Notes under the pieces: generated by a model | Told to the model about the DNA's origin: nothing | Seen by the model: only the letters and a program-made list of their open reading frames with translations | The model's database searches: none | Shown: positions 9,211 to 62,699 of the stretch, one piece after another | Layout of the letters: the number at the start of each line of letters is the position of its first letter | Position numbering within the stretch: the first letter of the stretch is position 1 | From: Hormiphora californensis | Lineage: Eukaryota; Animalia; Ctenophora | DNA length: 64,000 nucleotides | Direction of reading: 5' to 3' | Assembly (NCBI GenBank): GCA_020137815.1 | Contig: CM035350.1 | Coordinates: 3,906,001 to 3,970,000, forward strand | Position numbers and translations under genes: made by a program

Positions 9211-9948
9211 ATGGCAAACAAATTACCGCTCGCAAAGCACCTCATCAGGTCGGTACTTGTCACGGGTACCAACCGAGGAATTGGGTTGGAGCTGGTGCGG
9301 CATTTCGCGAAGGAACGCCGTGCTGGGCAGGACATAAAAATTATCTCCTGCTCTCGAACAATTAGTCCGGAACTCGAGGAGCTCCTTGAAGATGTTTATC
9401 ATTTTGAGTTGGAACTAACTCGACCAGCTGATGTGGCCTCCGTAGCGGGTGTTGCTGCTAACATATTGGAGGACAGGGGGCTTAACGTTCTTATCAACAG
9501 TGCCGGAATTCTGAGAATGGGCCAGGGAGTAACGGGGTGCTCTCACGAGGAATTAAAGGAGGTCCTGGACACAAACCTGATCGGGGTCCATTCTATGACA
9601 TCCGCATTTCATCCACTGTTAAAGCAAGCTGCCCCCTCGGCTGGGGTGTTTAACATATCAGCTGAAATTGCGAGTATTGCTGGAACTAACATTGCTAATA
9701 AAACAGCATATCGAATCAGTAAAGCGGCGCTGAACATGCTCACAAAGATCACAGCGGCCGAGTTTAGGAGGGATAAGATCATGGCCCTGGCAATCCATCC
9801 GGGATGGGTTCAGACGGATTTGGGGGGACCTAAAGCTCCCCTTACCCCTGAGCAGTGTGTACAAGATTTAGTGGAATGTATTGAAAACTGTGGTAGAAAG
9901 GACAGTGGGAAGTTTGTTAAGAAAGGACTCGTTGAGATACCGTACTAA
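9211..9948 (+). CDS. Short-chain dehydrogenase/reductase, C-factor (CsgA)/sniffer-like, intronless
   Basis: VTGTNRGIG Rossmann motif, LINSAG, YRISKAALNM catalytic YxxxK, IHPGWVQTDLGG. Confidence 0.92.
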   Translation: MANKLPLAKHLIRSVLVTGTNRGIGLELVRHFAKERRAGQDIKIISCSRTISPELEELLEDVYHFELELTRPADVASVAGVAANILEDRGLNVLINSAGILRMGQGVTGCSHEELKEVLDTNLIGVHSMTSAFHPLLKQAAPSAGVFNISAEIASIAGTNIANKTAYRISKAALNMLTKITAAEFRRDKIMALAIHPGWVQTDLGGPKAPLTPEQCVQDLVECIENCGRKDSGKFVKKGLVEIPY

Positions 9949-10173: not shown

Positions 10174-15411
<5,238 letters not shown>

Positions 15412-21422: not shown

Positions 21423-24400
21423 ATGGGCCCCTTTAAATCGGGAAAGGGTTTAAACCCCAAAGGGGTATGACTGGAAGGGTTCCAAAATGGGGCCCCCTTT
21501 GGGGCTGGGCACGACCCCGGGGATTTTAAAAAAGAACTGCCTCCCGGAACCTGCCTGGAAAAGCACTGACCCCCCCGCTGAGGGGGTGAAGGGTCCCAGG
21601 ATTTTTAAAATTCCAGGTGGGTTTTTTTTTTTTTTTGATTGCCCCCCCCCCATTTTTTTTTTTTCCCCCCCCCCCCTTTTTCCCTTCTCCCCTCCCCCTC
21701 TCCCCCTCCCCTCCCCCCCTCATCTCCCCCGGCCCCTATTTTTCCCCCCCCTCTCCCCCCCTCCCCCCTCATTCCTTCGTTTTTTCCCCTTTCCCCCCCT
21801 CTTCCCCCCCTCTTCCTCTTCCATTTTTTTCCCCCTCCCCCCCCGGTTCCCCCTTTTTCTTCCCCCCCTCTTTTTTCTCTTTCCCCCTTTCCTCTCTTCT
21901 TTTGTTTTTTTCTCCCCCTCTTTTTCCCCTTCCCCCTTTCCCCCCTCCCTCCCCCCCCCTCCCCTTCCCCTCTCTTCCCCCTCCTTTTTTTCCACCCCCC
22001 CCCCCCCCCCCTCCCCCCCCCCTCATTCGGTCCCCCATCCCCCTCTTTTTCTCTCCCCCCCTCTTTGGTTCCCATTCCCCTCCCTTTTCCCCCCTCCCCT
22101 CCCCCACCTTCCCCTCCCCCAATTTTTTTTTCCCCTCCCCCCCCTCTTCCCCCCCTTCCCCCTCCCCCTTCTTCCCCTCTCCCCCCTCTCCTTTTCCCCC
22201 TCTCCCCTTTCCCCCCCCCATTTTCCCCCCCTCCCCCTCTCATTTTTTCCCTCCTCTTTTCCTCCCTCCTCCTTTTTTCTCTCCCCCCCCCCCCATTTTT
22301 TTCTCCTTTCTCCTTTTTTCCTCTTTTTTTCCTCCCCCTTTTTTTCTCTTTTCGCCCCCCCCCTCTCTTCCCCTCTCCCCCTCTCCCCCTCCTTCCTCGC
22401 CCGGTTACTGACTGGCCCTTTTGAGGAAAAAGGGAAATTTTCCTTAAATCTGGGGACAGGTTTTCTCATTCTTAACACGTGGAAGGAAGAGGAAGAGTTC
22501 AAATACGATCTTCATTTCTGGATCGGTAATAATAAACGGGTCGTGGTTCGGGGGCAGGGTTGAAATTTTGTTGATTTTTGTTAGAACGGTGACAGGAAAG
22601 CACTCCAGCCACCCTGTTACACCCCTCCCCCCTCACCAGCCACCTAACGTCCCCTGTTACACCCCCACCCCCCACTCAGGAAAGCACTCCAGCCATCTAA
22701 CATATCCCCTGTTACACCCCCTCCCACCCCCTCACAAGCCACCATATTACACCCTCCCCCTCCCTCACTCAGGAAAGCACTCCAGCCACATTGTTAACAC
22801 CCCCCCCCCCTCCCCCTCAGGAAAGCACTCCAGCCAGGATGAATATGGAACAGCTGCCTACAAGACTGTCGAGCTGGACACCTACCTTAACGATAAGCCC
22901 ATCCAGCACAGGTATTGTAGTACTCAGTTACAGTCGTCCCCCGTCATAGCTCTGTTCAAGACTGTTTAGTGTTTAGTGTTTATAGCCTGTACATTACAGG
23001 GTGTTCTAGAATTTCCGGCCCACCTCCGAACATCTCCCGTTTCTAACGCCCCCACCCTCTCTCAGGGAAGTCCAGGGTTACGAGTCGGATATGTTCAGGG
23101 GATACTTCCCTAACGGTATCACCCTGATGGAGGGTGGAGCGGACACCGGTTTCAGACATGTCCCTCCTGAGTGCTACGAGCCCAGACTTCTCCAGTTGGT
23201 TGGGGGACGAAATGATGTGGTGGTAAGTGTGCAGTACTGTCTAGTTCACCGTAGTAATGTTCTGCTATAATAGCTGCTATAATAGCTGCTGGTATATAGA
23301 CTGCTATAATAGCTTGCACAGAAGAATTTGAAGAAGAAATTGCTCGTTTACTCATTTTACAAGCCAGCCCCTAATTGTCTAATTAATCAATATCAACTAT
23401 GTAATTACAGATGAAGGAGGTTGGTATGTGGAAGGAGAGAGTTAACTCCGATGATGTCTTTGTGCTGGATGCTGGACTCCGAATCCTACAGTTCAACGGA
23501 AAGAATGCCAATAAGGACGAGCAGATGAAGGCTGCCCAGTTCTGCCACAAGCTGAAGAGTGACCGACCCAAGGCCAAGCTGGAAGTTAGTGATGAGGAGA
23601 CCGATGGAACCAGGTTGATCATGAAGGGTCTCAGGGATGGAGGTCCCCCCAAGGAGGAAAATGTGGTAAGTGCAGGTGAACATGTGGTTGTCCGCTCTAC
23701 ATCTTGTTAACTCCACTACACCCAACGTATATCATTACAACTAATATGTTAACTATTTTCCAATTAATTATCCATCCCCCTAATTTTAGAAATACGAGGC
23801 TAAACCTGAGGACAGAACTCTTCTCCGACTAACTGAGAAGAGCGATAAGACCTTTGATTTCACAGAGGTCGGAAAGGGTGCTGATAATCTGGCTGGAACT
23901 GTTCTCGATCAGGGAGATGTCTACATCATTGATACTGGTAAGAGATGAGAGAGGGGTAGGGGAAGGGAAAGGGGTGGGGGAGAGGGTGGGGGAGGAGAGA
24001 AAAAGATGGAAAGAGAGTTGGGGAGGAGATATCACGTTATAGAACACTAAATTAGCTATTTCATCCCATTTTGCTGTTCAAAGAGCTAATCTACTGCCAT
24101 TTGCCCGAAATTAAAAGTGAATTACGTTATATTCCCGTTCTTGGCAGACAGCTAAGTGCTACTTCTCCAGCAAATTGAAGCACTTAGTCAAGTTCCAGGG
24201 TGGTAAAAAGGCATTTCTTTGATCGGAGATCTACTTACTTAAGGGACTGCAACCCTCCCATCTTTCATATCTCTTTCATATCTTTTTCATATCCCACTCT
24301 TACCATGAACATGTCGGAGTTCCAGCACATCGCAGCATCTCTACCCGAGCGTGTCGTTATGGCAACGTGGATGATTTCCATCTCCATCTTCTCTCTCCTT

Positions 24401-25670
24401 GGCAACACTTTCGTTCTCTACTCGTCCTTCAGGCACAAAGCCATCAAGTTAGATCCAGTCTCTGTAGCCCTGATCCGCAATATAGCCATTATAGACCTGG
24501 GCTTTGTGTTGCCCATCGCCGCCAATGCCACCTCAGTCATTGCTAACCGGTGGATTTTGGGCCAGGGTGTCTGTGATGTCATCAACTATCTCACCCTGTA
24601 TCTCGGAGTCACCGAGATATTTTCCATTTGTGCCCTGAACATCTCCAAAATAACGACCCTCCTGGCACCCCTGAAGGCACTGTTGAGGACCCCGGCAGCG
24701 GGTGTCCGTATCGCGTCCGTCATGTGGGTTATACCCCTGTTTCAAGTCATCCCGGCACGGGTCTTCGGGAATAGAGTCCAGGTGTTTAGTCTCAGTTACT
24801 ACCGGACCGAGGGGTATTACCTGGACGAACGGCTCAATCTCATTTTCCCACGGTTATTCGGGTCGGTGTTCGTCTTTGCTCCCGTTCTCCTGGTTCTCGC
24901 TGGAGTGGCTATTCTCCTGGGATACCTGGTGAAGAATCGCAACTGTGATGATAAAGAAACAAGGTATCGTGGTGCTTGATCATCGTATCAACCACCTATT
25001 TCTTCTCTTTCCTCCCCTACGGAACATTCCATGTTGGCAAAAAGGCCTTCTCCCAGATAAGATGGATGGCAGTTTACTTCTACCGATTCGCCTTGTGCCG
25101 CTCTTTATATCAGCTTTACCAGTAATCCCTATAATCTACTTCTTTTCCTTGCACAGCTTTAGGCGCTTCACCATTTCATGGTTTAAGGGCGGGAACAGGA
25201 AGAACAAGGGCCAGTCAGAGCTGGCGACTTCCTCTCGGTATCTCACCAGCCGGTCTCAGATTTGGAGGGAAGGGGGGAGCTAAACTGAGGGGGATCAACA
25301 CCAGGACAGATCCGGTTGGGACAAGGCGGAATTGTGGAACTTAGTGCTTTAGTTTTACCGGTAATTTGATGGGGGTTTGGCCTGGGTGGGAAAGGGTACG
25401 GTAATTATTAATATTACATTTAACCAATTTCTTATTTTAACCCCTTTCTTTCGAGGTATCTTCCCTCTAAAACGAACCAATTAACAGCCAATTAACACTA
25501 TCTCTTTGCAGGTGCCCATTGTTACGTGTGGGTTGGTCTCAACGCTAGCGAGGGAGAGAAGAAGAACGGATTTGCCTATGCCAGCACCTACCTGGCAAAC
25601 AGCAAGAACCCATTGGGGCCCCATCTCGGGTTTGGGAAGGAGAACGATAGGGAGACAAAGGGAAGGATCC
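21423..25670 (+). CDS. Gelsolin/severin-like actin-severing protein (3-domain type); both ends garbled
   Basis: YDWK..[80 protein letters not shown]. Confidence 0.88.
24305..25283 (+). CDS. Intronless rhodopsin-class GPCR nested in the last gelsolin intron (frameshifted near the 3' end)
   Basis: TM1 SLLGNTFVLY, TM2 NIAIIDL, WILGQGVC loop, further hydrophobic helices, PIIYFFSL..FRRF TM7/helix 8. Confidence 0.8.
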
Positions 25671-32549: not shown

Positions 32550-33386
32550 TTAGATGGTTTCGATAGGGTTCACATCACTCTCGGACACAATAAATTCTAC
32601 ATCTTCAGCTACATGTTTTGTCAGTTCCTCCACCACTGATTTCAAGTAGCCCCGTTCAGTGTGAGTATGTTCACTAAGTAACACATTCCTCCCCTCTGCA
32701 ATCACTGCTAGGACCTCATGGTGCGACATTTCCCCAGTCACATACAGATCTGCATCAACCCCCTTTAGTAGGGAACCTCCCGAGCCAGCACAGACAGCAA
32801 CTGTCCTGATAACATCGTAATCCTGGCCGGAATCTTTGTGTCGTTTTACCCACTGCAGAGGATCAGCGTGGCCCAATCGGAGGCTTGATACACCAAGATG
32901 CTGTTTGAAGGTCTCGCAAGCTTTTGTCAGGGAAAGGGGAGATTTGAGGGTGATGATACGGCCCATTCCACAAGTTGTAGAGGGTGCCCCGTCAATTAGG
33001 GCTGGAGTTATTGGGACTTTTCTCTTGTAACTCAGGCAATTAACGATCCAATCATTCACCCCGTTGTTTCTACTGTCCCAAGCGGTGTGGGGAGAGTAGA
33101 TGCTGATCCCACTCACCACACAATTAATGATGATACGAGATTTGGCGTTGTCTTGGGTGAGCCGCTTAAAACTGCTGAATATCGGAGGGTGGTAACTCAA
33201 AATCATGGAGCACTGCTTACTTTTAGCTTCTTCTAAGACGGGTTCAGTGAGGTCAATCGTTGTCAACACCTTTTTAACCGCTGGAGAGCTCGAAGATTCC
33301 AGCAGCAGACCCACATTATCCCAAGATTCTGCGTGTTTTGTTGGAGCAAACGATTCCAATTTTGTTACTAGAGTCCTAAGTTTCAT
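32550..33386 (-). CDS. NIF3L1: NIF3-like protein 1, intronless
   Basis: AESWDNVGLL, SYHPPIF, YSPHTAWD, VAVCAGSG, TGEMSHH, EHTHTERGYL. Confidence 0.95.
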   Translation of the reverse strand: MKLRTLVTKLESFAPTKHAESWDNVGLLLESSSSPAVKKVLTTIDLTEPVLEEAKSKQCSMILSYHPPIFSSFKRLTQDNAKSRIIINCVVSGISIYSPHTAWDSRNNGVNDWIVNCLSYKRKVPITPALIDGAPSTTCGMGRIITLKSPLSLTKACETFKQHLGVSSLRLGHADPLQWVKRHKDSGQDYDVIRTVAVCAGSGGSLLKGVDADLYVTGEMSHHEVLAVIAEGRNVLLSEHTHTERGYLKSVVEELTKHVAEDVEFIVSESDVNPIETI

Positions 33387-33665
33387 CTTTCAGGGACGTG
33401 GGAGTGGGACAGATGAGAATTTGCTTAAGAACAGAGGCCGTGAGATTTGAGACAAGATTTCAGAGCAAAAAAAGTTTAAAGGAAAACTTTTAAAATTTGT
33501 CAACGCGACGCTCGCGCTTGCACTATTCCGTCGTCGCGCGGCTTATATTTGCATCGCGGCTTTTATAAATCGCGCGCGTGTTTGAAGTTTCAAGCGCGAG
33601 CGTGTTTGAAGTTTCAAGCTTTTTTTTTTCGGTTTTTTTTTTTTTTTTTTGAAAATTCACTAACC

Positions 33666-35023: not shown

Positions 35024-38000
35024 TCAGTCAGTAAAATCACACATTGCAATGGGTGGTGGAGTCGTGAACTTTTTCCTCGTGCCCCTGAGTGAGACCAGAG
35101 TACTTCTGAGGAGACAGAATCGTATCCGCGTTCTCAGGAAATTAATCACTTCAGCATATTTATCCTTGTGTTTGGTAGAGATGCGTGAAGCGAGCTTTTT
35201 GATTAGTCGTTCTGCCTCTAGTCCGGAACCTCCGGAAGTAGCCATAACAAACGGGGTGAAAGCCCCTCTCTCCGATTCTCTGATTCTTTGTTGGTAATCA
35301 CGTTTCTTCCGACTTTCATTCATTTTGTACAGAGATTTTGGGTCTTTTCCTCTGTAACTGGGTGCAGTAGGATGAAACACTGCAACGTCCACGTGGGCCC
35401 CCTGTAGTCCTCTCCACAACCCAATGGCATACACGTCACTGCGAGCATCAGGTGCTGTATTGACACTTCGGGGGTAGTCATCTGGGTTAACTGGCTGCAA
35501 CACTTTCTCAATTTCAACACCCTTGTATCCTGCATGGGTAATAATATCTGCAAGGGTATCTCTAATCTCGTTGTGTCGCAGGATAGTAAACCCGCCAGTG
35601 CTACAGCTCAGGGCATGGTCTGCCCCATTCTGTTTTCCACATACACATTCAGAGAACTGGCCGTTGATTTCAAAGCCATACCTGAGGCACATCGCATCTG
35701 TGAACTCTGATTTGGATAGTTCTCTGTTGAAAATCTCCAAGGGCCGGGCAGAGAGCCAAGACGAAGCTCCCGTCTCCATGTTTAGAAGAAATGTCCTGGT
35801 CCATTTTTCTTCATCTTTACACACTGCCTCTCTTAGCGCCTTCTGTCTCTTCATCTCCTCGACACTGCATTCAAGCCTCCTCTCTGCGATTTCTTTCTCA
35901 ACTTCATGGATTGTCTTCTTGTTTTCATCCAATTCAAGTATGTTTAACACCAGTGGCTCAGTGACATGCTCTGAATTTTTGTAGAAGATCGGGGCCGTCT
36001 CAACTGGGTTATCTAAACCTAGTCCTCCCTCTCTGATAGGAAGGGCGAAGATCTTCCTCTCCATATCGCTACATGGTCTTCCTATCAGCTTGGGTATCAG
36101 TCTGTTCCTGATCGCATCTTCCAACCTCTGAAAAGAGTCTGCCGAGTCAGGGATGGTACGTTGGAGATACACCCATTTGAATTTCAGTGATGAGATGAAG
36201 TTCGAGTAGGCGAGGTGTGGATGGCTACTGGCAATTTCAGTTAAATTTTCAACCATGTCAGTCCACTCCGCTACTCGATCCTCAGTGTACTCCCAGCTGT
36301 ATTCCATGGTCCCAATCGCCGCTCCAAGATGCTTCGCACCTTCCACCGTCAGATTCAAATCTGTGTCATTGAATAGCTCCTTAGCTCTAGCCAGATGTTC
36401 ACGTTTTACCACCAGTGTAGACTTGCTCGGGTTAACATGGAATCCATAGTGCGGCCCAATCTCCACAGCTCTCTTGTACCAAGTTAGAAGGGTCTCTATA
36501 CTTCCTGCTGCATTTCCATCATCAGCGTAGAATATCTGTCTTATGTCTTGCTCTGGCAGGTCCTTAGTAAGCTTGGTTAGCATAGGGAGGATGGCAAGAC
36601 CAAACATCAGAAAGGCTGCTGGGTCCCCTTGAGTCGCTCCCTCTTCGCTTGATAGAGTATGTGGTCCTGTGTAGAGAGCAGTGGGAGCGCCATATATGTT
36701 TTTCAGGAATGGTGCGAAATCCGGACAAATATACTGGATGTTATGAAGTGCCAAGCGTCTGTTGAGCCTGTTAAATGCATTGGATGCATCTAACATGATT
36801 GCACCTTCTCCATTACTACTGTAGTATTTCCCTAGGCTGTGAATCGCAGCCTCACATCCTGCACTATGTCCCACCGCCACCTGCTGACAGCCTGCAACAT
36901 TCCTGGCATCTGGTTTGAGAAGTTTTACGATCGCAGATGTAAATATCCTTCTAAACACCTCGCTAATCCCGATAGGCCGCGTTCCTCCACATGGTTTTTC
37001 CATCGGCACCAGTCTGCAACTGAGGAAGACCGAAAGGAAAGCATGGTTGACTTGCTTTGTAGCTAGTTTGACTGCCACCTTACTAGCTGCTGTACATAGC
37101 TGCTTCGACGAGTCTTTGAAGACTCGGGCGCAAAAGATACGCCTTGCCCCACTTGAGTCAAAACCGCTGGGGCCACCAGATCCGCGAATGTTCTGAGCAC
37201 ATTGGTAGATTGAGGGGCCGGTGATTCTTTCGAAGAATATAGGTTCCGGTTGGTCGATAGGTCCTTGTAACGCAAACTCACTGTTTGCTGGCTTGGAGGC
37301 AGGATGCTTGTCACGGAGGTCTTCCAGCACAGAATCCGTGAGGGGCTTCAATCCGGCTGTGTGCCGCTCTGAGTTCAGCCAGTTGGATGCCTCTTTTACA
37401 TTCCCTTCCCTCATAGCTTTGATGAACTTTTTCTTGCAGGTCTCTTTGCTGGCCTGTGTTGCTTTCAAAGGTTTTTGGGTGGCTCTGCCCTCTCTCAACA
37501 GGGAAGTGAAATGTCCTTCCTTCCACAGTTTGAGTCTGCGTTCTAGGAGCTCAATGTGTTGTGCTAGCTTCGATGATTTTGATGGTTTTTGAAGCAGCAG
37601 AGTGGGAGCGAGGACAGCAGCCGATAACGCATAACATTCTGCTGAGGGTTCATGAACAAAAATGGTAAGAAGCCTGGTAAGCTCGTCAACAAAACTCCGT
37701 CCAACTGTTCCCTGGGGGACCTCGAAAAGATTCGGCATCCAGCTAGAGGTCGATTCAGACAGGGAATTGAAGATTTCCAATAGGTCTGCAGGCGAATGAT
37801 CGCCCCAGTATGGTCCATTTGTTGGTAAGGTGGGGTTGGCAGGAATTTTGTTCAGGGGAAGGCACCCAACACAAGAAAAGTACGATGCATAGGGGTTCTG
37901 AAGGCAATGGTAGTGAAATCGGCGGCTGCAAGATTCACAGGGAATTAAGCTGTTTGGATCTGCAGCCTCGTAACATTGGTCACACTCTTCATAAGAAGCA

Positions 38001-38509
38001 GTTGTGTCATCAATGGGAAATGTTAGCTGATTGGATTTGCCACATTCGCTCACTTCCCTACATCTGGAAAGGTAAGTGTTAACTTTTTGACTCGTGGTTA
38101 TGGATGGGAGGAGAGGTGAATCAAGTGGTTCGTTGTCACTGTGTGCACACTCAGTTTTGGCAGGTGATTTCATTGCCTCGGTATCATTCACTTCAATCTC
38201 GGTTCTTGCTGGTGACTCAGGTATCTCAGTGTCACTAACAATAATCTCAGTTCTAGCAGGCGAGTCAACGTCGCTATCAACTTTCTCTGTTCTCACAGGT
38301 GACAGTCCATCAAATGAAATAGTTCGATGAGGTGTGTGATGTTGAATCGTGGTTGATTGATCATCGAAAGAGCTCTCGTCAGATGATGAACTGAAATCAC
38401 TACCGCGAGTGAACGTGAGGAGAAAGGAGTCTGGATGCGTAGATGATGAGGGGGTGGAGGTAGTATGTTTAGAGCGTGAAGATCGAGGAGTATCAGTTTG
38501 TGAGGACAT
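35024..38509 (-). CDS. Retrotransposon polyprotein: PHD-type finger, reverse transcriptase, restriction-like endonuclease
   Basis: CDQC..CESC..HYHC..CVGC; RPIGISE, LDASNAFN, GATQGDP, YADD; CVCG..H..SC, RHNEIRD, RSD..VDV..E..KK..Y. Confidence 0.93.
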   Translation of the reverse strand: MSSQTDTPRSSRSKHTTSTPSSSTHPDSFLLTFTRGSDFSSSSDESSFDDQSTTIQHHTPHRTISFDGLSPVRTEKVDSDVDSPARTEIIVSDTEIPESPARTEIEVNDTEAMKSPAKTECAHSDNEPLDSPLLPSITTSQKVNTYLSRCREVSECGKSNQLTFPIDDTTASYEECDQCYEAADPNSLIPCESCSRRFHYHCLQNPYASYFSCVGCLPLNKIPANPTLPTNGPYWGDHSPADLLEIFNSLSESTSSWMPNLFEVPQGTVGRSFVDELTRLLTIFVHEPSAECYALSAAVLAPTLLLQKPSKSSKLAQHIELLERRLKLWKEGHFTSLLREGRATQKPLKATQASKETCKKKFIKAMREGNVKEASNWLNSERHTAGLKPLTDSVLEDLRDKHPASKPANSEFALQGPIDQPEPIFFERITGPSIYQCAQNIRGSGGPSGFDSSGARRIFCARVFKDSSKQLCTAASKVAVKLATKQVNHAFLSVFLSCRLVPMEKPCGGTRPIGISEVFRRIFTSAIVKLLKPDARNVAGCQQVAVGHSAGCEAAIHSLGKYYSSNGEGAIMLDASNAFNRLNRRLALHNIQYICPDFAPFLKNIYGAPTALYTGPHTLSSEEGATQGDPAAFLMFGLAILPMLTKLTKDLPEQDIRQIFYADDGNAAGSIETLLTWYKRAVEIGPHYGFHVNPSKSTLVVKREHLARAKELFNDTDLNLTVEGAKHLGAAIGTMEYSWEYTEDRVAEWTDMVENLTEIASSHPHLAYSNFISSLKFKWVYLQRTIPDSADSFQRLEDAIRNRLIPKLIGRPCSDMERKIFALPIREGGLGLDNPVETAPIFYKNSEHVTEPLVLNILELDENKKTIHEVEKEIAERRLECSVEEMKRQKALREAVCKDEEKWTRTFLLNMETGASSWLSARPLEIFNRELSKSEFTDAMCLRYGFEINGQFSECVCGKQNGADHALSCSTGGFTILRHNEIRDTLADIITHAGYKGVEIEKVLQPVNPDDYPRSVNTAPDARSDVYAIGLWRGLQGAHVDVAVFHPTAPSYRGKDPKSLYKMNESRKKRDYQQRIRESERGAFTPFVMATSGGSGLEAERLIKKLASRISTKHKDKYAEVINFLRTRIRFCLLRSTLVSLRGTRKKFTTPPPIAMCDFTD

Positions 38510-38797
38510 GATCTCACCTCAGGAACAGACCAGGAATGGGTATGTTGAGAATTCTCAACTAAAGATTGTTGTTAAATAATTAAGTCCTTTCCGCGGAAAT
38601 TACCGGGAAGAACTTCGACGTGTCGTTGAGTGTACTCAACTAGAAAAGAAAATAAAGAAGAGATCTTGTTGATCTTAGGGTCTGGAACCCTCTCTGGCCT
38701 ATCGATGGCCAGAGAGACAAATAGCAACAAAACAAAGGAAAGTTTCAAGCTCATGTTTTTTAAAACGCGGCATCCAAAATTTTTCAGGTTTTACAAA

Positions 38798-39527
38798 GGA
38801 AAACGTTAAAATCTGGGTGCCTTTCATTGCTAACAATTCGTAGTTATGGCGCGCGCAACGGGTTAGGGCTATCCGTTAGGGTCTGGTTAGGGTTTGGTTT
38901 GGGGCTATCGGTTAGGGCTATCGATTCTCTAACTGATACCGTTTAGTTTACTCAAATCGGCTATGTGGTTCCATGGCTATAGCCGTTTGAAAAAAGTCGG
39001 TCTAAGTATACTCTTTTGGTAGCGCGCACATGTAAACAGGCTGCAAGGCACCCAGATTATATAATCGCGCTACCAAAAGAGTATACTTAGACCGACTTTT
39101 TTCAAACGGCTATAGCCATGGAACCACATGGCCGATTTGAGTAAACTAAACGGTATCAGTTAGAGAATCGATAGCCCTAACCGATAACCCCAAACCAAAC
39201 CCAAACCAGACCCTAACGGATAGCCCTAACCCGTCGTGCGCGCCAAAACTACGAATTGTTAGCAATGAAAGGCACCCAGATTTTAACGTTTTCCATTATA
39301 ATCTGGGTGCCTTGCAGCGTGTTTACAGGTGCGCGCTGCCAAAGGAGTATACTTAGACCGACTTTTTTCAAACGGCTATAGCCACGCAACCACATGGCCA
39401 ATTTGAGTAAATTAAACGGTAACTGATAGAGAATCGATAGCCCTAACCAATAACCCCAAACCAAACCCTAACCAGACCCTAACGGATAGCCCTAACCCGT
39501 CGCGCGCGCGCCAAAACTACGAATTGT
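38798..39527. mobile_element. Cluster of three MITE family A copies (inverted and tandem)
   Basis: Repeated GGCACCCAGATT and TTAGACCGACTTTTTTCAAACGGCTATAGCC blocks in both orientations. Confidence 0.85.
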
Positions 39528-39882
39528 TTCGAACACGCATATCTCCTGATGAGATAGAGACTTGAAATTTGGAGGTTAGGAATCATGCCAAGTTTGAAGT
39601 TCTCCATTTAACCTCCAAATTTCAAGTCTATCTCATCAAGAACTGGAGATATGCGCCTTTGAAATAAGGTCAAAAAGACCCCCCTGTCCCTTGATTAAAA
39701 ATCCAACTTTATACAGCCTCCTCATGTGGATACATAAACATAAACATAAACATAATGACAATTTATATACCGCACTGACACAGTTTTATTCACAGACGAC
39801 TCGTTTTCCCTCATTTGAAAGGGACTGCAGTAGACTGCCTGCTCCTAGCACGGTTCTCTGACAACGGTGAATTAGTGGGGAA

Positions 39883-40848
39883 CTATCCCACTTGGATGAC
39901 ATTATTACGGATGAAATAGCAGCCATCTGGATCGTCTAACCGTATCCGTCTCAAGGTGGACCTGAGAGCTTTTTGCTCCTTCAGTTGAGAGGGTGTTAGA
40001 TCCGGAGATAGATAAACAGCCGAAAACTGTTGGGATTCCTTGAGGTTTCTTGCCTTTTTGAGCAGCGCCAGGAGAGTCGCTCTCTTCTCCAGGGATACTA
40101 AGAGCGGTCTAGGGCGATTCTCGTTTCTTTCGCCGATGCGTTTCATCGTTGTCACTTTTGGTTTCTCTTGCAATTCCTCAAACAGTTCGTCTAAAGTAGT
40201 TTTAGCTACTCTATCGGTTGTTTCTGGGAGACCAAACACAATCAGGTTCTTCTCTCTTCCGGGCTGTTGGACGGGAGTAGGGTGGTGTAAGGGTGGCGGT
40301 TTTCCCACTTTGGGGGACGTTGCAGCACAATTCTGTGCGAGCACAGTAGAGTAGGCTTTCACCTTCTGCACCGATGCTGTAACTGTACTGAGTTGTTGCT
40401 TCTGGTGGTTGATAACCGTTTGCTGAAGCTCGATCACGCTAACCCGATGGCGGTCAAGTTCTTCTTTGCACTCATGTAGCTGCTTCTCGAGTTTTTCTGC
40501 ACTGATAACAATTTCAAAATTGTTCATAGTTGCTCGGGCAAGTTTCATACTGGAGAGAAAAAGACGAGAAGTGGCCTCGACAATTTCATTGGCAGTTAGG
40601 TCCTTGAGACAATGTCTGAAGTACGAACCCCAATGATTGGAAGGGGAACTCACGGAGTCATTGGTTAACGCTGAATCGGGTGCAAGTTGAATCGATTTAT
40701 AACATTGGATAAACTGATCTGGTGTGATACTCATCGTGTTGGGATCATCAGCCGAATTCAACCGGTAAACTTCAGAAACAAAGTCGTCTATTGACTCTTC
40801 CAATCGTGTTATCGTAGGGTTATCGCCCTCGTACTCTGTTTTCGACAT
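39883..40848 (-). CDS. LINE ORF1-like protein (coiled coil plus RRM-like C-terminal domain); no ORF2 downstream
   Basis: Heptad-rich middle region, then REKNLIVFGLPE..RIG..RPRPLLVSL..VYLSPDLT, typical of invertebrate CR1/L2/Jockey-group ORF1. Followed by AATAAA and (TTTATG)n. Confidence 0.75.
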   Translation of the reverse strand: MSKTEYEGDNPTITRLEESIDDFVSEVYRLNSADDPNTMSITPDQFIQCYKSIQLAPDSALTNDSVSSPSNHWGSYFRHCLKDLTANEIVEATSRLFLSSMKLARATMNNFEIVISAEKLEKQLHECKEELDRHRVSVIELQQTVINHQKQQLSTVTASVQKVKAYSTVLAQNCAATSPKVGKPPPLHHPTPVQQPGREKNLIVFGLPETTDRVAKTTLDELFEELQEKPKVTTMKRIGERNENRPRPLLVSLEKRATLLALLKKARNLKESQQFSAVYLSPDLTPSQLKEQKALRSTLRRIRLDDPDGCYFIRNNVIQVG

Positions 40849-40894
40849 TATCAACGTTTCGTTTTCCGGCCGTTACATCGGATTCATCTTCCTG

Positions 40895-40938
40895 CTCAAA
40901 TTAATTTGTTTAAAGTAGTGTTGAAAAGTTTGAAACTC
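40895..40938 (-). other. Spliced-leader exon copy (ctenophore-type), fused to the ORF1-like gene
   Basis: GAGTTTCAAACTTTTCAACACTACTTTAAACAAATTAATTTGAG ends in the TTTGAG typical of metazoan SLs and matches my recollection of the Pleurobrachia SL. It is followed by CAGG rather than GT. Confidence 0.8.
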
Positions 40939-41262
40939 CCACGGTTCGAACGATAGAGGAGGCTGCAGCATATTTCAACCCAAAAGCGTGAATACAATCT
41001 ATGTATTTCCTTCCGAAAAAACATGCGTCGAGGATTGCGGGCAATTCCTCCTGTTTTCCCTTGCCTTGTTCGACCCTGACTCACCGCACCCGGTTTAGAA
41101 CATTAAACATAACAAGTTTTTCCTACAAGGTTTCCGTCTAATGTTTAGGCGTGTATTTTATTCTAGGTAGATCCTTTTTTATAATTTGTAAAGTCATGTC
41201 GAGACATTCACATTTAAAACAACGCCTCTCTGAACTCATCAACTAAAAGTCCGTGCCCCGGC

Positions 41263-41620
41263 TCAGAGCATAGTCCAACAAGGAGTTTTCATGAATAGTG
41301 GTCGATCAGCAATGCCCCTGAGGTGCCCTCCTAGTACAACCTTGAGTTCATCCACATTCCCGGCCTCCTTGACCAACTTTGGAAGAGTATTCCATATTTT
41401 TGCCCCAAGAACCGAAAAAGAGTTTTCAAACGCCGTGAACGCCGTTTTTTGTGCCCTATGATTGTATTTCGGGATCACTGCCCGTTCCCCAAAACGAGGG
41501 GTGTCCTTGAAGTCAAATCCGGGTCAGTTTGGAGCTAGTCTGTTGCAGATCTTGAACATATGATTCAGGACATAGCGCTCTCGGCGCTTCTGCAGGGACT
41601 GTAGATCAAGATCAGAAAAG
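41263..41620 (-). pseudogene. 3' fragment of a LINE (CR1/L2-like) ORF2
   Basis: SLQKRRERYVLNHMFKI..LAPN and NSFSVLGAKIWNTLPK C-terminal motifs, with frameshifts. Confidence 0.75.
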
Positions 41621-41725: not shown

Positions 41726-44700
41726 ATGTCTAAACGGCGGAAGGCTACTCCTGACACCAGTGATGACTACTATATCATCCTTGGAGTGGGGCGGGATGCT
41801 AGCGATAGTGACATCAAGAAAGCGTGAGTTTTAGCCGAAAACTTCATTTCATCTGTTATACGCATGTATATAATATACGCGTGTGTGTGTTAGTTAGAGA
41901 TGTAATGAAATACAGTTAGAGGTGGAACGGAAAGAGAAACTTCATCAGTTAATGAACGGTTTTGATTATATATCAGGTACAGAAAATTAGCGTTGAGATA
42001 CCACCCCGATAAAAATCAAGATGACCCAGAAACGGCTACAGAGATGTTTAAATCCATCAGTGAAGCATATGATGTACTTAGTGATCGTAAGTGTTTTATT
42101 TGTACCATTCATGCTCAACAACTGTTTTGTAGTAAACGTGAGACTTGTCTTTTCATATTGTACCATCATGTTCATAATATGAAGAGAGAAAACGAGTGCC
42201 GTATACATGTTGTGTTATCTCATTTTACACTTTTTATACCCGAGTCTCGTGAAGTCGTATATATTTCAACACTAACCCTGTGCTTTATCTCTCAGCACAG
42301 AAGAAGCAAGTATATGACCTGTATGGAAAGGAAGGTCTGACAGATAGTAAGTATAGATGAGAGAGAGAGTGTGGGGAGACTTTTCGCTATCGTCGTCTGT
42401 CTCACATTTCACAAACACTACCATTTGATATACAAACTCCCCTACCATAATAAAATATATATACAATCTGAAACTACCGAACCTCCAGCCCACTACGCCA
42501 CTACGTGGACCCCACTAACTCACAAACCACCAGCCACCAGGTGTACCCCAGTAACTCACAACCCCCTTCCCACTAGGTGGACCCCACTAACTCCCAACCC
42601 CCTCCTACTAGGTGGACCCCACTAACTCCCAACCCCCTCCTACTAGGTGGACCCCACTAACTCCCAACCCCCTCCCACTAGGTGGACCCCACTAACTCAC
42701 AACCCCCTTCCCACTAGGTGGACCCCACTAACTCCCAACCCCCCTCCCACTAGGTGGACCCCACTAACTCACAAACCACCAGCCACCAGGTGTACCCCAG
42801 TAACTCACAACCCCCTTCCCACTAGGTGGTCCCCACTAACTCCCAACCCCCTTCCCACTAGGTGGACCCCACTAACTCACAACCCCCTTCCCACTAGGTG
42901 GACCCCACTAACTCCCAACCCCCCTCCCACTAGGTGGACCCCACTAACTCACAAACCACCACCCACTAGGTGGACCCCACTAACTCCCAACCCCCTCCAC
43001 ACTAGGTGGACCCCACTAACTCCCAACCCCCTCCACACTAGGTGGACCCCACTAACTCCCAACCCCCCTCCCACTAGGTGGACCCCACTAACTCACAAAC
43101 CACCACCCACTAGGTGGACCCCACTAACTCCCAACCCCCTCCACACTACGTGGACCCCACTAACTCACAAACCACCAGCCACCAGGTGTACCCCAGTAAC
43201 TCACAGCCCCCTTCCCACTAGGTGGACCCCACTAACTCCCAACCCCCTCCACACTACGTGGACCCCACTAACTCCCAACCCCCTCCTACTAGGTGGTCCC
43301 CACTAACTCACAAACCACCAGCCACCAGGTGTACCCCAGTAACTCACAACCCCCTTCCCACCAGGTGTACCCCAGTAACTCCCAACCCCCCTCCTACTAG
43401 GTGGACCCCACTAACTCCCAACACCCTCCTACTAGGTGGACCCCACTAACTCACAACCCCCCTCCCACTAGGTGGACCCCACTAACTCCCAACCCCCCTC
43501 CTACTAGGTGGACCCCACTAACTCCCAACCCCCTCCTACTAGGTGGACCCCACTAACTCACAACCCCCCTCCTACTAGGTGGACCCCACTAACTCACAAA
43601 CCACCAGCCACCAGGTGTACCCCAGTAACTCACAACCCCCTTCCCACTAGGTGGACCCCACTAACTCCCAACCCCCTCCTACTAGGTGGACCCCACTAAC
43701 TCCCAACCCCCTCCTACTAGGTGGACCCCACTAACTCCCAACCCCCTCCCACTACGTGGACCCCACTAACTCACAAACCACCAGCCACCAGGTGGACCCC
43801 ACTAACTCCCAACCCCCTTCCCACTAGGTGGACCCCACTAACTCCCAACCCCCCTCCTACTAGGTGGACCCCACTAACTCACAACCCCCTTCCCACTAGG
43901 TGGACCCCACTAACTCCCAACCCCCCTCCCACTAGGTGGACCCCACTAACTCACAAACCACCACCCACTAGGTGGACCCCACTAACTCCCAACCCCCTCC
44001 ACACTAGGTGGACCCCACTAACTCCCAACCCCCTCCACACTAGGTGGACCCCACTAACTCCCAACCCCCCTCCCACTAGGTGGACCCCACTAACTCACAA
44101 ACCACCACCCACTAGGTGGACCCCACTAACTCCCAACCCCCTCCACACTACGTGGACCCCACTAACTCACAAACCACCAGCCACCAGGTGTACCCCAGTA
44201 ACTCACAGCCCCCTTCCCACTAGGTGGACCCCACTAACTCCCAACCCCCTCCACACTACGTGGACCCCACTAACTCCCAACCCCCTCCTACTAGGTGGTC
44301 CCCACTAACTCACAAACCACCAGCCACCAGGTGTACCCCAGTAACTCACAACCCCCTTCCCACCAGGTGTACCCCAGTAACTCCCAACCCCCCTCCTACT
44401 AGGTGGACCCCACTAACTCCCAACCCCCTCCTACTAGGTGGACCCCACTAACTCACAACCCCCCTCCCACTAGGTGGACCCCACTAACTCCCAACCCCCC
44501 TCCTACTAGGTGGACCCCACTAACTCCCAACCCCCTCCTACTAGGTGGACCCCACTAACTCACAACCCCCCTCCCACTAGGTGGACCCCACTAACTCCCA
44601 ACCCCCTCCTACTAGGTGGACCCCACTAACTCACAACCCCCCTCCCACTAGGTGGACCCCACTAACTCACAACCCCCCTCCTACTAGGTGGACCCCACTA

Positions 44701-54660: not shown

Positions 54661-54762
54661 TTTGGCCAGGGGTTCCCGGAAAACGGATTGGCAAGATGAG
54701 AACTGACCGGAGTCGGGAGTTCTTATAATTCACGAATTTGGAATTTTTCGTCGACTTTTTTT

Positions 54763-55035
54763 GGAAAACGTTAAAATCTGGGTGCCTTTCATTGCTAACA
54801 ATTCGTAGTTTTGGCGCGCGCGACGGGTTAGGGCTATCCGTTAGGGTATGGTTAGGGTTTGGTTTGGGGTTATCGGTTAGGGCTATCGATTCTCTAACAG
54901 ATACCGTTTAGTTTATTCAAATTGGCCATATGGTTGCGTGGCTATAGCCGTTTGAAAAAAGTCGGTCTAAGTGTACTCTTTTGGTAGCGCGCACCTGTAT
55001 ACACGCTGCAAGGCACCCAGATTATAATCGCGCCC
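54763..55035 (-). mobile_element. MITE family A copy, 9-bp TSD
   Basis: TSD ACTTTTTTT on both sides. Confidence 0.85.
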
Positions 55036-55423: not shown

Positions 55424-57133
55424 TCCATTTTTTTTCAACTGTTCACCCCCCAAAGTCGTGCGCGGAATTGTTTTGCGCGTCTATCAGTGATAGTATCACA
55501 TGTTAAGGGTACGCTAACCAAAAATTTTTTTCGAGTGCAGGGAAATCTCTCACCGTAGGGTTGTAGGCCATGCCAAGGAGACCTCAAATATGCAATTTGA
55601 GCTCTCAAGTCGAATTCATATTTTTGCTACAGCTGTTTAAAAAATGTCCTGAAAATACGTTTTTGGCATATCAAAAAAATTTTTTTAAAGATAGGAGCAT
55701 GAAAATTTGGGGATTTGAAGAGGACATATAGTCCATTTTTTTTCAACTGTTCACCCCCCAAAGTCGTGCGCGGAATTGTTTTGCGCGTTTATCACATGTT
55801 AACGTGTAGCGCGCGCAGCGTAAATTAAAATATCGCACGCGCACGAGTTGAGGGGTGAACAGTTGAATAAAAATGGACTTTAAAGGTGAATAACCACAAA
55901 AATTTTTTTTGCAATCCGAGCTGATTTCCGGTCCTGAGATGGATTTCTTTTTTTCCACTTTAACGCCCTATTTGGCAAAGTTCCGAAAACATGTGAAAGC
56001 TGTAAATTGGTGAAAAGTTGCGTCTAACGATTATCTAAGTGGCCATAAATTTTGGGCGGGTCCTTATTTGAGATAAGCTGTACAGAATTTTTTTTGTGAA
56101 AGCCGTCATTTCAGAAATAAATAAATTCCCTGTATCTCAAAAACGGCTGATCGTAGAGACCTGAGACTATGCTTAAACGATTCAGAAGGTCCGATTTTGG
56201 GGGGGTCTTCTGAGAGACATTTTGCTCCTACTTCAACCGTTTTTGCTATAATTGCGAAAAACAAATTCTATGAAAAGGGCAAAAGCTAAACTCCAATATC
56301 CTGTATTTAGGGAATTTTGGCTAAGAAAGGACCGAAACTATGGAAAAATATGTAACAAGCTAATTCCTTCACTATTTGGTCCATATGGGTCCCTATAATC
56401 ACCAAAAACAAAATCACAAAAAATCCACGATGGCGAAGATGGGTTTTTGTTTTTCGCAATTACAGCAAAAACGGTTGAAGTAGGAGCAAAATGTCTCTCA
56501 GAAGACCCCCCCAAAATCGGACCTTCTGAATCGTTTAAGCATAGTCTCAGGTCTCTACGATCAGCCGTTTTTGAGATACAGGGAATTTATTTATTTCTGA
56601 AATGACGGCTTTCACAAAAAAAAATTTGTACAGCTTATCTCAAATAAGGACGCGCCCAAAATTTATGGCCACTTAGATAATCGTTAGACGCAACTTTTCA
56701 CCAATTTACTGCTTTCACATGTTTTCGGAACTTTGCCAAATAGGGCGTTAAAGTGGAAAAAAAGAAATCCATCTCAGGACCGGAAATCAGCTCGGATTGC
56801 AAAAAAAATTTTTGTGGTTATTCACCTTCATGTCCTCTTCAAATCCCCAAATTTTCATGCTCCTATCTTTAAAAAAAATTTTTTGATATGCCAAAAACGT
56901 ATTTTCAGGACATTTTTTAAACAGCTGTAGCAAAAATATGAATTCGACTTGAGAGTTCAAATTGCATATTTGAGGTCTCCTTGGCATGGCCTACAACCCT
57001 ACGGTGAGAGATTTCCCTGCACTCGAAAAAATTTTTTGGTTAGCGTACCCTTAACGTGTAGCGCGCGCAGCGTAAATTAAAATATCGCACGCGCACGAGT
57101 TGAGGGGTGAACAGTTGAATAAAAATGGACTTT
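55424..57133. mobile_element. Large foldback element with nested small MITEs
   Basis: ~55510-56265 is the reverse complement of ~56450-57055, apart from a ~150-bp insertion; repeated GTCCATTTTT..CAACTGTTCACCCC ends. Confidence 0.8.
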
Positions 57134-58087
57134 ATAGACCGAATTTTTTCAAACGTCTATAACCACGCAACCACATGGCAAATTTGAGTAAACTAAATTG
57201 TATCTGATAGAGAATCGATAGCACTAACCGATAACCCCAAACGAAACCCTAACCACACCCTAACGGCTAACAACAGTGAACAGCCCTAACCCGTCAAGAC
57301 CGCCAAAATCGATGAATTGTTAGCAATGGAAGGCACCCAGATTATAACTTTGCCCGACTCGAAAGGCATGGTTGAGCTGTCTGGCGCGCGACCCATCTGA
57401 GCGCACTGTCGCGCGCTCAGATTAGGGTCTGGTGTCACAATATATCACGCTGCGTGAGTGATCTGGTGGGATCGTGATTTCACGCGCAAATAGTGAGCCG
57501 CGCTAAAAATCAGGCTTATTTTGCAACGCCGCGGCGCGTTTTCCTTAAAATATCGCATTTTCAAAATTTCAAAAATTTCGCCGGGCAACTTTTCGCGATT
57601 TTTTTTGTCAAAAAAGTTTTCGCGACAAACTTTTTTGAGTTAATGGTTACGGACACTTTAAAAACACAAACCCCAAGTGAGGGTTTTGATATGGGTTTCT
57701 TGTCACAGAGACTCGCGATGCCAGTGTTTAATAATTCAAAATGGAGATGTGCAATTGCCTGTTATATGTTTGATTTGATTCTTCTTCAGAAACCGGAACC
57801 ACTTTCTGTGTCTGAAATAAAACTTTGTTCACTATAATTTTAGCTAACGCCCGTCAATGTCATTTTAGCTAGATTTAGATCAATTTGAGAATCGAATGGG
57901 GGTATGGCACCGCCATACAGAGTTTGACAAAGTTTTGTCTGGCACCCCCCAGTAGCTACAGACTACAGTTGCAGTCCCGTTCTCCCGCCTTTTCTCACTT
58001 TCAGCTCTGTTGCATTTGTTCAGCTTGTTCCTTGTTTATACTTGTGTTTTGTTAGCTAACCCGGTCAGCAAGACCGCAGCCAAAGTG

Positions 58088-60129: not shown

Positions 60130-60532
60130 TTAAAGAAATTAGAAAACTCTAAAAAACGACAGTTATTTAAAATCAGACTATAGACCGAATTTTTTCAAAC
60201 GTCTATAACCACGCAACCACATGGCCAATTTGAGTAAACTAAATTGTATCTGATGGAGAATCGATAGCACTAACCGATAACCCCAAACGAAACCCTAACC
60301 AGACCCTAACGGCTAACAACAGTGAACAGCCCTAACCCGTCTCGACCGCCAAAATCGATGAATTGTTAGCAATGAAAGGCACCCAGATTATAACTTTGCC
60401 CGACTCGAAAGGCATGGTTGAGGTACTGGAAACGTGTCAAAGGAACAGGGCAAGGGAAAATTTCAGATTTTTAAGACTGATATGCAAATTTTTAATTTTG
60501 GCAAAATTTGCAAATTTGCAAATTTTGGAAAA

Positions 60533-61579: not shown

Positions 61580-61668
61580 AAAAACTTGAAAAGCAGTGTT
61601 TGCCAACTCTGTGGTGAATTATGCAGCCATTCTTTATTGTGTCTCTACCTCTTTTCTCCGTGTCCTAA

Positions 61669-61941
61669 GGGCGCGATTATAATCTGGGTGCCTTGCAGCC
61701 TCTTTACAGGTGCGCGCTACCAAAAGAGTACACTTAGACCGACTTTTTTCAAACGGCTATAGCCACGCAACCACATGGCCGATTTGAGTAAACTAAACGG
61801 TATCAGTTAGAGAATCGATAGCCCTAACCGATAACCCCAAACCAAACCCTAACCAGACCCTAACGGATAGCCCTAACCCGTCGCGCGCGCCAAAACTACG
61901 AATTGTTAGCAATGAAAGGCACCCAGATTTTAACGTTTTCC
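61669..61941 (+). mobile_element. MITE family A copy, 9-bp TSD
   Basis: TSD GTGTCCTAA at 61660-61668 and 61942-61950. Confidence 0.88.
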
Positions 61942-62699
61942 GTGTCCTAACACAATATACCTATGGTACACCCGCACACGTGTTCCTATGTTCATTCACT
62001 GTTTGCCAACTCCCAAAAACATTTGGAACGATCGGAGAAGGTCGGGGCAACTGGCACACCCTAACTGCTAACGAATCCCCCCGGAAAGAACCTGTCCCTG
62101 CGGTCAATTGAATCCCATCAGCAGAACTTGTGCTGTGCCGTAAATGCGGACAGTTAAAAAGCGGTTAGCGGACTATAAATTTATATTTTGTATTGTATTG
62201 TATTGTATTGTATTGTAATTCAACTGCAAATTTTCGGGGGGGGGGGAGGCTCTGCCCCTTCACGCCCTGGTCTGCCCCTAAACGCCCTGGTCCGTTGTGG
62301 GCCCCACCCCCGACACCACATGGGAGGACGCGGCTGAAAGCCGGACACCGCCCCTGCTTCCAATCCTTTGGGTTTGCAAATTAAGGTTTTAAGAATCCAT
62401 TTCCCGGACCTGAGTTTTACCTTGAGACTTGTTTGTTTGTTTGTTTGTTTGTGATTGCTGCGTCTGGAGGATGACCTGCCCGAAAGTAGTAGAGGCCGCA
62501 CCGAACACGCTTATTAGGCGCCCCAGCACGTCCTCCACTCCGCCGTAGCAAGGCCACCCACCAATCAGTTTATGCAGAGCATGTTACTTCAGACGCTCCA
62601 GGAAGACCGTGGTCAACCACTGGCGACACCGAGCGGCGAGACCCGCACGGCGTCGACAGGGGTATCACACTACTCCTGGCCTAAATCAAATTCTAAGGT

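What the first reader, a model, noticed from the sequence alone, without database searches (positions are those of the whole stretch)
39731..40938. Genomic spliced-leader exon fused to an ORF1-only LINE-like gene
Seen, on the minus strand: a complete 44-nt SL-like exon, then CAGGAAG, a 4-codon uORF (MNPM*), an intact 321-codon ORF1-like frame, a short 3' UTR with AATAAA, and a (TTTATG)n tail. Known: an SL RNA gene has GT plus an Sm site after the exon, and SL-mRNA junctions normally exist only in RNA. Inference: this is a reverse-transcribed, trans-spliced transcript. It may be a non-autonomous element that uses host trans-splicing to gain its 5' end and then carries the SL in DNA. No TSD was found. 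The SL identity is from memory.
Basis: partly seen in the sequence, partly recalled or inferred. Interest (0 to 1): 0.92.

Follow-up and report, generated by a model that had tools for sequence, protein, structure and literature searches.

The report
Jumping gene headed by spliced leader
A comb-jelly genome holds a small ORF1-only jumping gene whose DNA begins with the exact leader that the cell normally splices onto its messenger RNAs, and relatives show the same build, so the family was likely copied from host-trans-spliced RNA and may need no promoter of its own.

Summary
Confirmed and extended. The 44-mer (40938-40895, minus) is letter for letter the Hormiphora californensis spliced leader and lacks the GT donor and a canonical Sm site (74). 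It heads a 321-aa ORF whose model matches LINE-1 ORF1p, with no ORF2, a hexamer tail and no TSD. It is not a one-off: DNA-run contigs cover the ORF with many variants, dN/dS is about 0.2 (53), and relatives show the same build. Six gene calls, two from Pleurobrachia bachei, read through a second SL-like head from six different flanks. Both heads occur inside and outside the window's clade; one DNA contig joins the leader exactly after an internal AG of a relative's UTR, as trans-splicing would. Best reading: a non-autonomous ORF1-only LINE family (like HAL1, HeT-A, Ag-Sponge) that likely gets its 5' end from host trans-splicing. Renewal at the genomic leader's own AG is inferred; no transcript was seen and this copy's leader-UTR junction was not bridged by reads. 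Not found in print (10 searches); this scan noted SL-headed LINEs before in dinoflagellates and a euglenid (unchecked).

The parts
40895..40938 (-). DNA copy of the 44-nt spliced-leader exon (head A); ends in AG; not followed by GT
   Evidence: 44/44 identical to the H. californensis SL consensus (PMC8527503); RNA-like run X20 covers only this part, with mixed loose ends; no GT donor, no RAT4-6GR Sm-like site in the next 120 nt
40849..40894 (-). 46-nt 5' UTR starting CAGGAAG
   Evidence: Same start in L001 behind the same leader; read as QEDESDV behind head B in P0050 and behind its last three residues in P0003
40873..40887 (-). uORF MNPM*, in frame with ORF1 in this copy
   Evidence: kept in L001; P. 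bachei model P0011 starts MKPMY, apparently the same stretch read as an N-terminus
39883..40848 (-). Intact ORF1 protein, 321 aa: helical N-part, coiled coil (about 117-175), RRM (about 197-283), CTD (to 321)
   Evidence: AlphaFold model; Foldseek best hits human LINE-1 ORF1p, E 1e-5; VIA-align Z 11.0, rmsd 2.5 over 87 residues to 2w7a and Z 10.7, rmsd 3.1 over 134 to 2yko; distant homologs precede APE/RT ORF2 in 4 of 6 distant loci; dN/dS 0.16-0.23
39756..39882 (-). 3' UTR with AATAAA (39790-39785) and TATAAAT (39767-39761); no ORF2
   Evidence: TATAAAT also precedes the tail in L002 and L003
39732..39755 (-). Hexamer tandem tail (TTATGT)x4 in place of poly(A)
   Evidence: other hexamer tails in L002 (TTTGTA) and L003 (ATTGAT)

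Best explanation
This is a 1.2-kb member of a diverged, multi-copy family of ORF1-only, likely non-autonomous LINE-type retroelements of comb jellies whose DNA copies begin with the host spliced leader, most likely because they are reverse-transcribed from trans-spliced RNA. Shown: the leader identity, the ORF1 fold, the lack of ORF2, the hexamer tail, purifying selection, many variants in DNA runs, and SL or SL-like heads behind different flanks. Inferred cycle: (1) host read-through transcription enters the copy from its flank. (2) The genomic leader ends in an AT-rich run plus AG, so it would serve as its own trans-splice acceptor; a fresh capped SL replaces the old one at the same point and cuts away the flank, which explains a single complete leader rather than stacked relics. 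(3) ORF1p is made and would package its own RNA. (4) The endonuclease/RT of an autonomous LINE with repeat tails (likely CR1/L2 group) would prime on the TATAAAT-hexamer 3' end and copy through to the cap. Trans-splicing would thus do the job that internal promoters do for L1 and self-cleaving ribozymes do for R2.
For: SL identity and no GT/Sm. ORF1p fold. Family: 32 homologs including 4 P. bachei gene models. DNA-run contigs (X1, X2, X6) cover the whole ORF with 241 variant rows; single ORF contigs in X2 have depth 11-354 against 22-27 for flank contigs. An X2 contig joins the upstream flank to 27 nt of the leader with 0 differences (record 15). L001 has the same leader end plus UTR at 81% protein identity; L002 has 6-7 extra 5' letters, an SL-like head B (35 of 47 columns identical to the SL, 0 of 2000 shuffles as good), the ORF and a hexamer tail. 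6 of 314 held proteins read through head B, with 6 different upstream peptides; sequence 5' of a leader is not expected in mRNA. Heads A and B share one 98/98 clade. An X6 DNA contig (depth 339) joins head A to 18 letters identical to those following the last AG of the L003 UTR. dN/dS 0.16-0.23 in 6 pairs; 21 of 35 listed ORF substitutions synonymous against 24% of sites, p 5e-6. Precedents: about 30% of Hydra TE Iso-Seq reads carry an SL; an AG in dinoflagellate SL relics is proposed as a re-splicing acceptor.
Against: No transcript of the element was seen. The leader-to-CAGGAAG junction of this copy is not among the contig pieces shown (one search lists 32 of 3915), and the flank-leader contig has 27 leader letters, under the tool's 31-letter bar; X2 may also be the source sample. 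Whether L001-L003 and the ENA contigs are DNA or RNA assemblies is unknown. Head B is not shown to be a leader on mRNAs. The tree alone needs 2 changes, no fewer than shuffles, and starred branches do not rule out one origin; the X6 form has no protein in the tree. No autonomous partner with the same 3' end was found. No TSD. Depth is not copy number.
Confidence: 0.68

Rival explanations
1. SL-headed copies are dead-end retrocopies: one or a few SL-less master loci (or domesticated ORF1 genes) with their own promoter and outron are trans-spliced like any gene, and their mRNAs are retroposed; the copies do not feed the next round.
For: Explains the head, the AG-exact junction and purifying selection between subfamilies equally well. 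Dinoflagellate retrogenes arise this way.
Against: Hexamer tails with a shared TATAAAT motif instead of poly(A) point to LINE-type 3' recognition. At least four subfamilies and two heads. L002 and the X6 form differ by splicing at two AGs, which fits serial rounds but does not prove them. No SL-less upstream sequence appears among the 6 informative gene calls, although P0003 shows only three head residues and P0028 none.
Confidence: 0.17
2. The leader was captured once by template switching and now acts as an internal promoter, like the small-RNA head of a SINE; trans-splicing is not needed in each cycle.
For: Kojima proposes template-switch addition of RNA heads to bipartite LINEs. An SL-derived promoter is proposed for dinoflagellate retrogenes. 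Nematode SL exons holding promoter elements is recalled, not checked.
Against: Two different heads on the same UTR (window and L001 versus P0050) and the same head on different UTRs need repeated exchange. The X6 join falls exactly after an AG.
Confidence: 0.09
3. The leader is the target, not the head: a site-specific element (NeSL/SLACS-like) inserted at the exon-intron border of an SL RNA gene.
For: The bases at the end of the tail can be read as GTATCC, a possible donor. SL-targeting LINEs exist (recalled).
Against: No joint from the leader end to the downstream flank among the 8 joints listed, although SL genes are multi-copy. The upstream flank has single-copy-like depth in X2. Upstream peptides differ in 6 of 6 relatives. 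L003's tail is not followed by GT. An X1 contig carries another 3' flank (record 1).
Confidence: 0.03
4. Assembly artefact: a cDNA or chimeric read built into the genome.
For: SL-mRNA joins normally exist only in RNA; this copy's inner junction was not bridged by a listed contig.
Against: DNA-run contigs match the flank-leader join and a 200-nt ORF stretch with 0 differences (records 15 and 7). There is no poly(A). Independent records repeat the build.
Confidence: 0.03

Closest known systems
ORF1-only non-autonomous LINEs: HAL1 (L1 clade), HeT-A (Jockey clade), Ag-Sponge (CR1 clade), as summarised in PMC5786205 (passages read)
   Same: One ORF1p-type protein, no endonuclease/RT, LINE-type 3' end, multi-copy.
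   Different: The 5' end is the host SL exon plus 20-60 nt of UTR, not a LINE 5' UTR/promoter. Hexamer tail and no TSD (HAL1 has poly(A) and TSDs, recalled). Partner clade not determined here.
SL-relic retrogenes of dinoflagellates (Song et al. 2017, PMC5585692, passages read; Slamovits and Keeling 2008 only as cited there)
   Same: DNA copies of trans-spliced RNA carry the SL; an AG in the relic is proposed as an acceptor for new trans-splicing.
   Different: Those are ordinary host genes with partial, often stacked relics. Here it is a mobile-element family in an animal with one complete leader and its own ORF1.
SL-bearing transposon transcripts in Hydra (PMC12220107, passage read)
   Same: Animal TE RNAs use host SL trans-splicing.
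   Different: Reported at RNA level only; the passage does not describe an SL fixed in the DNA of the element.
R2/R1/R4 and L1Tc elements with 5' self-cleaving ribozymes (passage in PMC5786205; listings)
   Same: Works like them if the model holds: host transcription plus precise RNA processing defines the 5' end.
   Different: The processing here would be spliceosomal trans-splicing, which also supplies a cap; no ribozyme, not site-specific.
SL-targeting retrotransposons NeSL, SLACS, CZAR, CRE (recalled; not read)
   Same: SL sequence lies directly beside a non-LTR element.
   Different: They are autonomous restriction-like-endonuclease elements inserted into SL RNA genes. Here the flanks differ between copies and there is no RT.

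Membership tests
SL RNA gene | Exon identical to the leader on mRNAs | tested here: met
   44/44 to the published consensus; RNA-like run covers only the leader with mixed loose ends
SL RNA gene | GT donor directly after the exon | tested here: not met
   Followed by CAGGAAG
SL RNA gene | Sm site in the following intron part | tested here: not met
   No RAT4-6GR in the next 120 nt; the consensus is recalled and the ctenophore Sm site was not available; no Rfam match at gathering score
ORF1-only non-autonomous LINE (HAL1 / HeT-A / Ag-Sponge type) | Encodes a LINE ORF1p | tested here: met
   Fold matches L1 ORF1p coiled coil-RRM-CTD; distant homologs precede APE/RT ORFs
ORF1-only non-autonomous LINE (HAL1 / HeT-A / Ag-Sponge type) | No ORF2 between ORF1 and the 3' tail | tested here: met
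   Tail within about 130-200 nt of the stop in window, L002 and L003
ORF1-only non-autonomous LINE (HAL1 / HeT-A / Ag-Sponge type) | Interspersed multi-copy family with different flanks | tested here: met
   Many variants in DNA-run contigs and another 3' flank; six different upstream peptides; indirect, no genome-wide count
ORF1-only non-autonomous LINE (HAL1 / HeT-A / Ag-Sponge type) | 3' end shared with an autonomous LINE of the same genome | not testable with these tools
HAL1 (L1-derived) | Poly(A) tail and target-site duplication (recalled) | tested here: not met
   Hexamer tail, no TSD
CR1/L2-group derivative (Ag-Sponge-like) | ORF1 and 3' end descend from a CR1/L2-group LINE | tested here: inconclusive
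   Repeat tail without TSD fits (recalled); homologs at 27-33% identity precede APE-RT, but no RT tree was made
SL-targeting retrotransposon (NeSL/SLACS/CRE) | Inserted in an SL RNA gene, with conserved SL-gene flanks on both sides | tested here: not met
   Flanks differ between copies; no leader-to-downstream joint listed
Trans-splicing-dependent retroelement (proposed) | Element RNA receives a fresh SL at the AG of the genomic leader | not testable with these tools
   Needs 5'-complete reads; indirect support from head exchange and an AG-exact join

The most novel reading that the evidence does not exclude
A promoterless animal retroelement family whose only 5' cis-element is the host spliced leader: each DNA copy presents the leader's terminal AG as a trans-splice acceptor, so any read-through transcript is cut to an exact, capped, full-length element RNA, and heads are swapped for whatever SL the host uses. 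A sizeable share of the 718 genomic 'SL copies' counted in H. californensis (491 in M. leidyi) would then be heads of such elements rather than SL RNA genes.
Probability: 0.45. Interest if true: 0.88.

Novelty: new variant of a known kind. Interest (0 to 1): 0.74.

Why it matters
Non-LTR elements must rebuild their 5' end in each cycle. The known solutions are internal promoters (L1, SINE heads) and ribozyme cleavage of host co-transcripts (R2). Using host SL trans-splicing would be a further solution, here in an animal and in an element reduced to ORF1. It would also change how the hundreds of genomic SL matches in ctenophore assemblies are read: the genome paper treats them as spliced-leader loci to which reads map artefactually. 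It affects SL gene counts, gene models (P0027, P0081 and P0082 are chimeric models built on these elements) and the idea that SL sequences can be recycled through DNA. The key test needs only a public genome and Iso-Seq reads.

Tried and rejected
Pfam does not recognise the ORF or its relatives: only weak scattered matches, mostly coiled-coil, and one PHD hit among the 32 members; 13 of 14 further relatives had no family at 0.001. The sequence search of PDB gave nothing; the fold search did. The ESM Atlas did not answer. No relatives in prokaryote genomes or viral contigs. No longer fused ORF1-ORF2 form among 7994 candidates, which is weak evidence. A search for other proteins beginning with the head-B peptide returned only P0003 and lacked power, so head B is untested as an mRNA leader. 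The RNA-like run X20 has no cover over the ORF; contigs show presence, not absence. No empty-site joint was listed. Contig lengths of 69 hand-picked full-length near relatives have median 1357 and 65 of 69 are 2 kb or less; this fits a 1.2-kb repeat unit but is weak, since such contigs are short anyway. Rfam gave only sub-threshold miRNA-like hits on neighbouring palindromic repeats. No shared 3' stem-loop emerged from single-sequence folds of three 3' ends. The LINE-like relic upstream does not align with the L004 ORF2. Derelle et al. 2010 was not held, and the supplements of PMC8527503 could not be read; either may list SL variants or describe the 718 loci.

Full report
OBSERVATION. On the minus strand the window reads: unique flank, a 44-nt leader (40938-40895), a 46-nt UTR starting CAGGAAG with the uORF MNPM* (40887-40873), an intact 321-codon ORF (40848-39883), a 127-nt 3' UTR and four TTATGT units (39755-39732). 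The 44-mer is identical at all positions to the leader consensus of Hormiphora californensis, found on 56% of Iso-Seq reads and 718 times in that genome (491 times in Mnemiopsis leidyi); the authors read the genomic matches as spliced-leader loci to which reads map artefactually (PMC8527503, passages). It occurs once in the window. In the RNA-like run X20, 667 contigs lie on the leader alone and the listed loose ends are of mixed sequence, as expected for a trans-spliced leader. Here it is not followed by GT and no canonical Sm-like site follows within 120 nt, so this is not an SL RNA gene. No TSD was found. The window is thus likely from a pleurobrachiid ctenophore.

THE PROTEIN. Pfam gives nothing. 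An AlphaFold model from 28 sequences (mean pLDDT 67; about 75-89 over residues 201-321) shows a long helix, an RRM and a small C-terminal domain. Foldseek's first 11 rows are all human LINE-1 ORF1p (E 1e-5 to 4e-4); VIA-align gives Z 11.0, rmsd 2.5 over 87 residues to the ORF1p RRM and Z 10.7, rmsd 3.1 over 134 residues to the trimer chain, above ordinary RRMs at 8.7 or less. Of 6 distant loci (27-33% identity), 4 have an endonuclease ORF directly downstream, one with RT as well. A profile finds 7787 proteins at E 0.001 or better. So the ORF is a LINE ORF1p, and there is no ORF2 before the tail.

A FAMILY, NOT ONE COPY. 32 homologs were found, 4 of them P. bachei gene models. Contigs of three DNA-like runs from two organisms cover the whole ORF, with 241 variant rows over the stretch; in X2 listed ORF contigs have depth 11-354 against 22-27 for flank contigs, which suggests tens of related copies (inference; the tool warns that depth is no copy number). 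X1 holds a 200-nt ORF stretch with no difference from this copy and a contig with the same 3' UTR but another flank. X2 holds a contig joining 108 nt of upstream flank to 27 nt of leader with no difference; this is under the 31-letter bar for bridging and X2 may be the source sample. dN/dS is 0.16-0.23 for all 6 pairs among the window and L001-L003 (dS near saturation in 4). 21 of the 35 shown substitutions in the ORF are synonymous against 24% of sites (p 5e-6; only the 40 best-supported of 241 rows were visible). L002 and L003 end, like the window, in TATAAAT plus a hexamer tail of their own, without poly(A). Repeat tails without TSDs are typical of CR1/L2-group LINEs (recalled).

THE HEAD. 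L001 (81% protein identity) starts inside the same leader and continues with the same CAGGAAG and uORF. L002 starts with 6-7 other letters, then a related head B (35 of 47 columns identical to the leader, 0 of 2000 shuffles as good, also ending TTGAG). Head B is open in one frame, so gene calls can read through it: 6 of the 314 proteins held do (P0027 and P0081, P. bachei gene models; P0050, P0245, P0277, P0278), each with a different peptide upstream. Sequence 5' of a leader is not expected in mRNA, so these are likely genomic insertions at different places. Only calls extended upstream can show a head; head A left no such trace. In an ML tree of 30 proteins, heads A (window, L001) and B (P0050) share a 98/98 clade, and B also heads two other clades; the label test alone is not significant and does not exclude one origin. 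Beyond the tree, a DNA contig of organism B (depth 339) joins head A through 18 letters to the ORF; these 18 letters are those that follow the last AG of the L003 UTR, while L002 and L003 carry a longer UTR from an AG further upstream. A join exactly behind an internal AG is what trans-splicing gives; a 2-nt microhomology deletion is the alternative. Together, both heads occur inside and outside the window's clade, so heads have been exchanged at least twice if the X6 form is counted.

MECHANISM. Shown: the parts above. Inferred: the copies derive from trans-spliced RNA. The leader's only AGs are at positions 2 and 43, and the 30 nt before the last are 80% AT, so the genomic leader could act as its own acceptor; re-splicing there restores the same 5' end, with no stacked relics, and lets the host's current SL replace the old one. 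Transcription would come from the flank; in this copy a DnaJ gene starts head to head 788 nt away. ORF1p is conserved, likely because it packages its own RNA, and an autonomous LINE would supply RT. None of these four steps was observed. Rivals: dead-end retrocopies of SL-less masters (0.17), a SINE-like internal promoter (0.09), insertion into SL genes (0.03), artefact (0.03).

WHAT IS OPEN. This copy's leader-UTR junction is not among the contig pieces shown. The DNA or RNA nature of L001-L003 and of the ENA contigs is unknown. Head B is untested as an mRNA leader. No transcript and no partner LINE were seen. The share of the 718 genomic leaders that are such heads is unknown.

KNOWN WORK. 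ORF1-only non-autonomous LINEs are known (HeT-A, HAL1, Ag-Sponge; PMC5786205, passages; the original papers not read). SL-tagged retrogenes are known in dinoflagellates (PMC5585692, passages). About 30% of Hydra TE reads carry an SL (PMC12220107, passages). NeSL, SLACS and CRE are recalled. Passages or term look-ups in PMC7986045, PMC12460157, PMC3795323, PMC4664967, PMC8629364 and PMC12221973 added nothing on this point. Ten searches (listings and abstract starts only) showed no paper describing a mobile element headed by a genomic SL in an animal. The library lacks most subscription papers and Repbase; Derelle et al. 2010 and the Hormiphora supplements were not readable and may bear on this. 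Earlier notes of this scan describe SL-headed LINEs in two dinoflagellates and a euglenid and SL relics in Perkinsus LTRs; they are unchecked, were read after my own reading was noted, and none concerns ctenophores or this sequence.

VERDICT. Confidence 0.68 in the best explanation, 0.45 in the full promoterless self-renewal model; interest 0.74.

Noticed in passing
window 35024-38509 (-): Intact 1161-aa single-ORF retroelement with RVT_1 and C-terminal motifs resembling CRE/R2-type restriction-like endonuclease elements (classification recalled), 1.2 kb downstream of the finding; no SL match at its 5' end.
   Followed up: partly
window about 41230-41610 (-): Broken frame resembling the C-terminal end of a LINE ORF2 (recalled motif), same strand, about 300 nt upstream of the leader; no Pfam hit and no alignment to the L004 ORF2.
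   Followed up: partly
window 41726-42085 (+): First two exons of a DnaJ gene, head to head with the element, ATG directly behind an acceptor-like TTTTCAG; a possible source of divergent transcription into the element.
   Followed up: partly
window 38790-39670, copies near 54762-55033, 57133-57376, 60179-60422, 61668-61976: Palindromic MITE-like repeat family directly downstream of the tail.
   Followed up: no
P0082 (P. bachei gene model): Gene model joining the C-terminal half of a family ORF1 to PSF3 (GINS) exons, likely a prediction chimera from an element inside or beside a host gene.
   Followed up: no
window 40939-40940 (-): Two G bases precede the leader; one could be a cap-templated G as described for L1 (recalled), but this cannot be told from flank without an empty site.
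   Followed up: no
window 40873-40887 and P0006/P0009/P0011: The uORF stretch appears as the true N-terminus (MKPMY / MYEDK) in a sister subfamily, so the start of translation seems to have shifted within the family.
   Followed up: partly
window 17111-17295 and 18111-18295: Inverted arms made of 13-mer tandem arrays, 815 nt apart, like a foldback element.
   Followed up: no
window 9211-9948 (+), 24188-24979 (+), 32550-33389 (-), 11501-12199 (-): Long single-frame ORFs: short-chain dehydrogenase, rhodopsin-family GPCR, NIF3/DUF34, and a weak GIY-YIG match.
   Followed up: no
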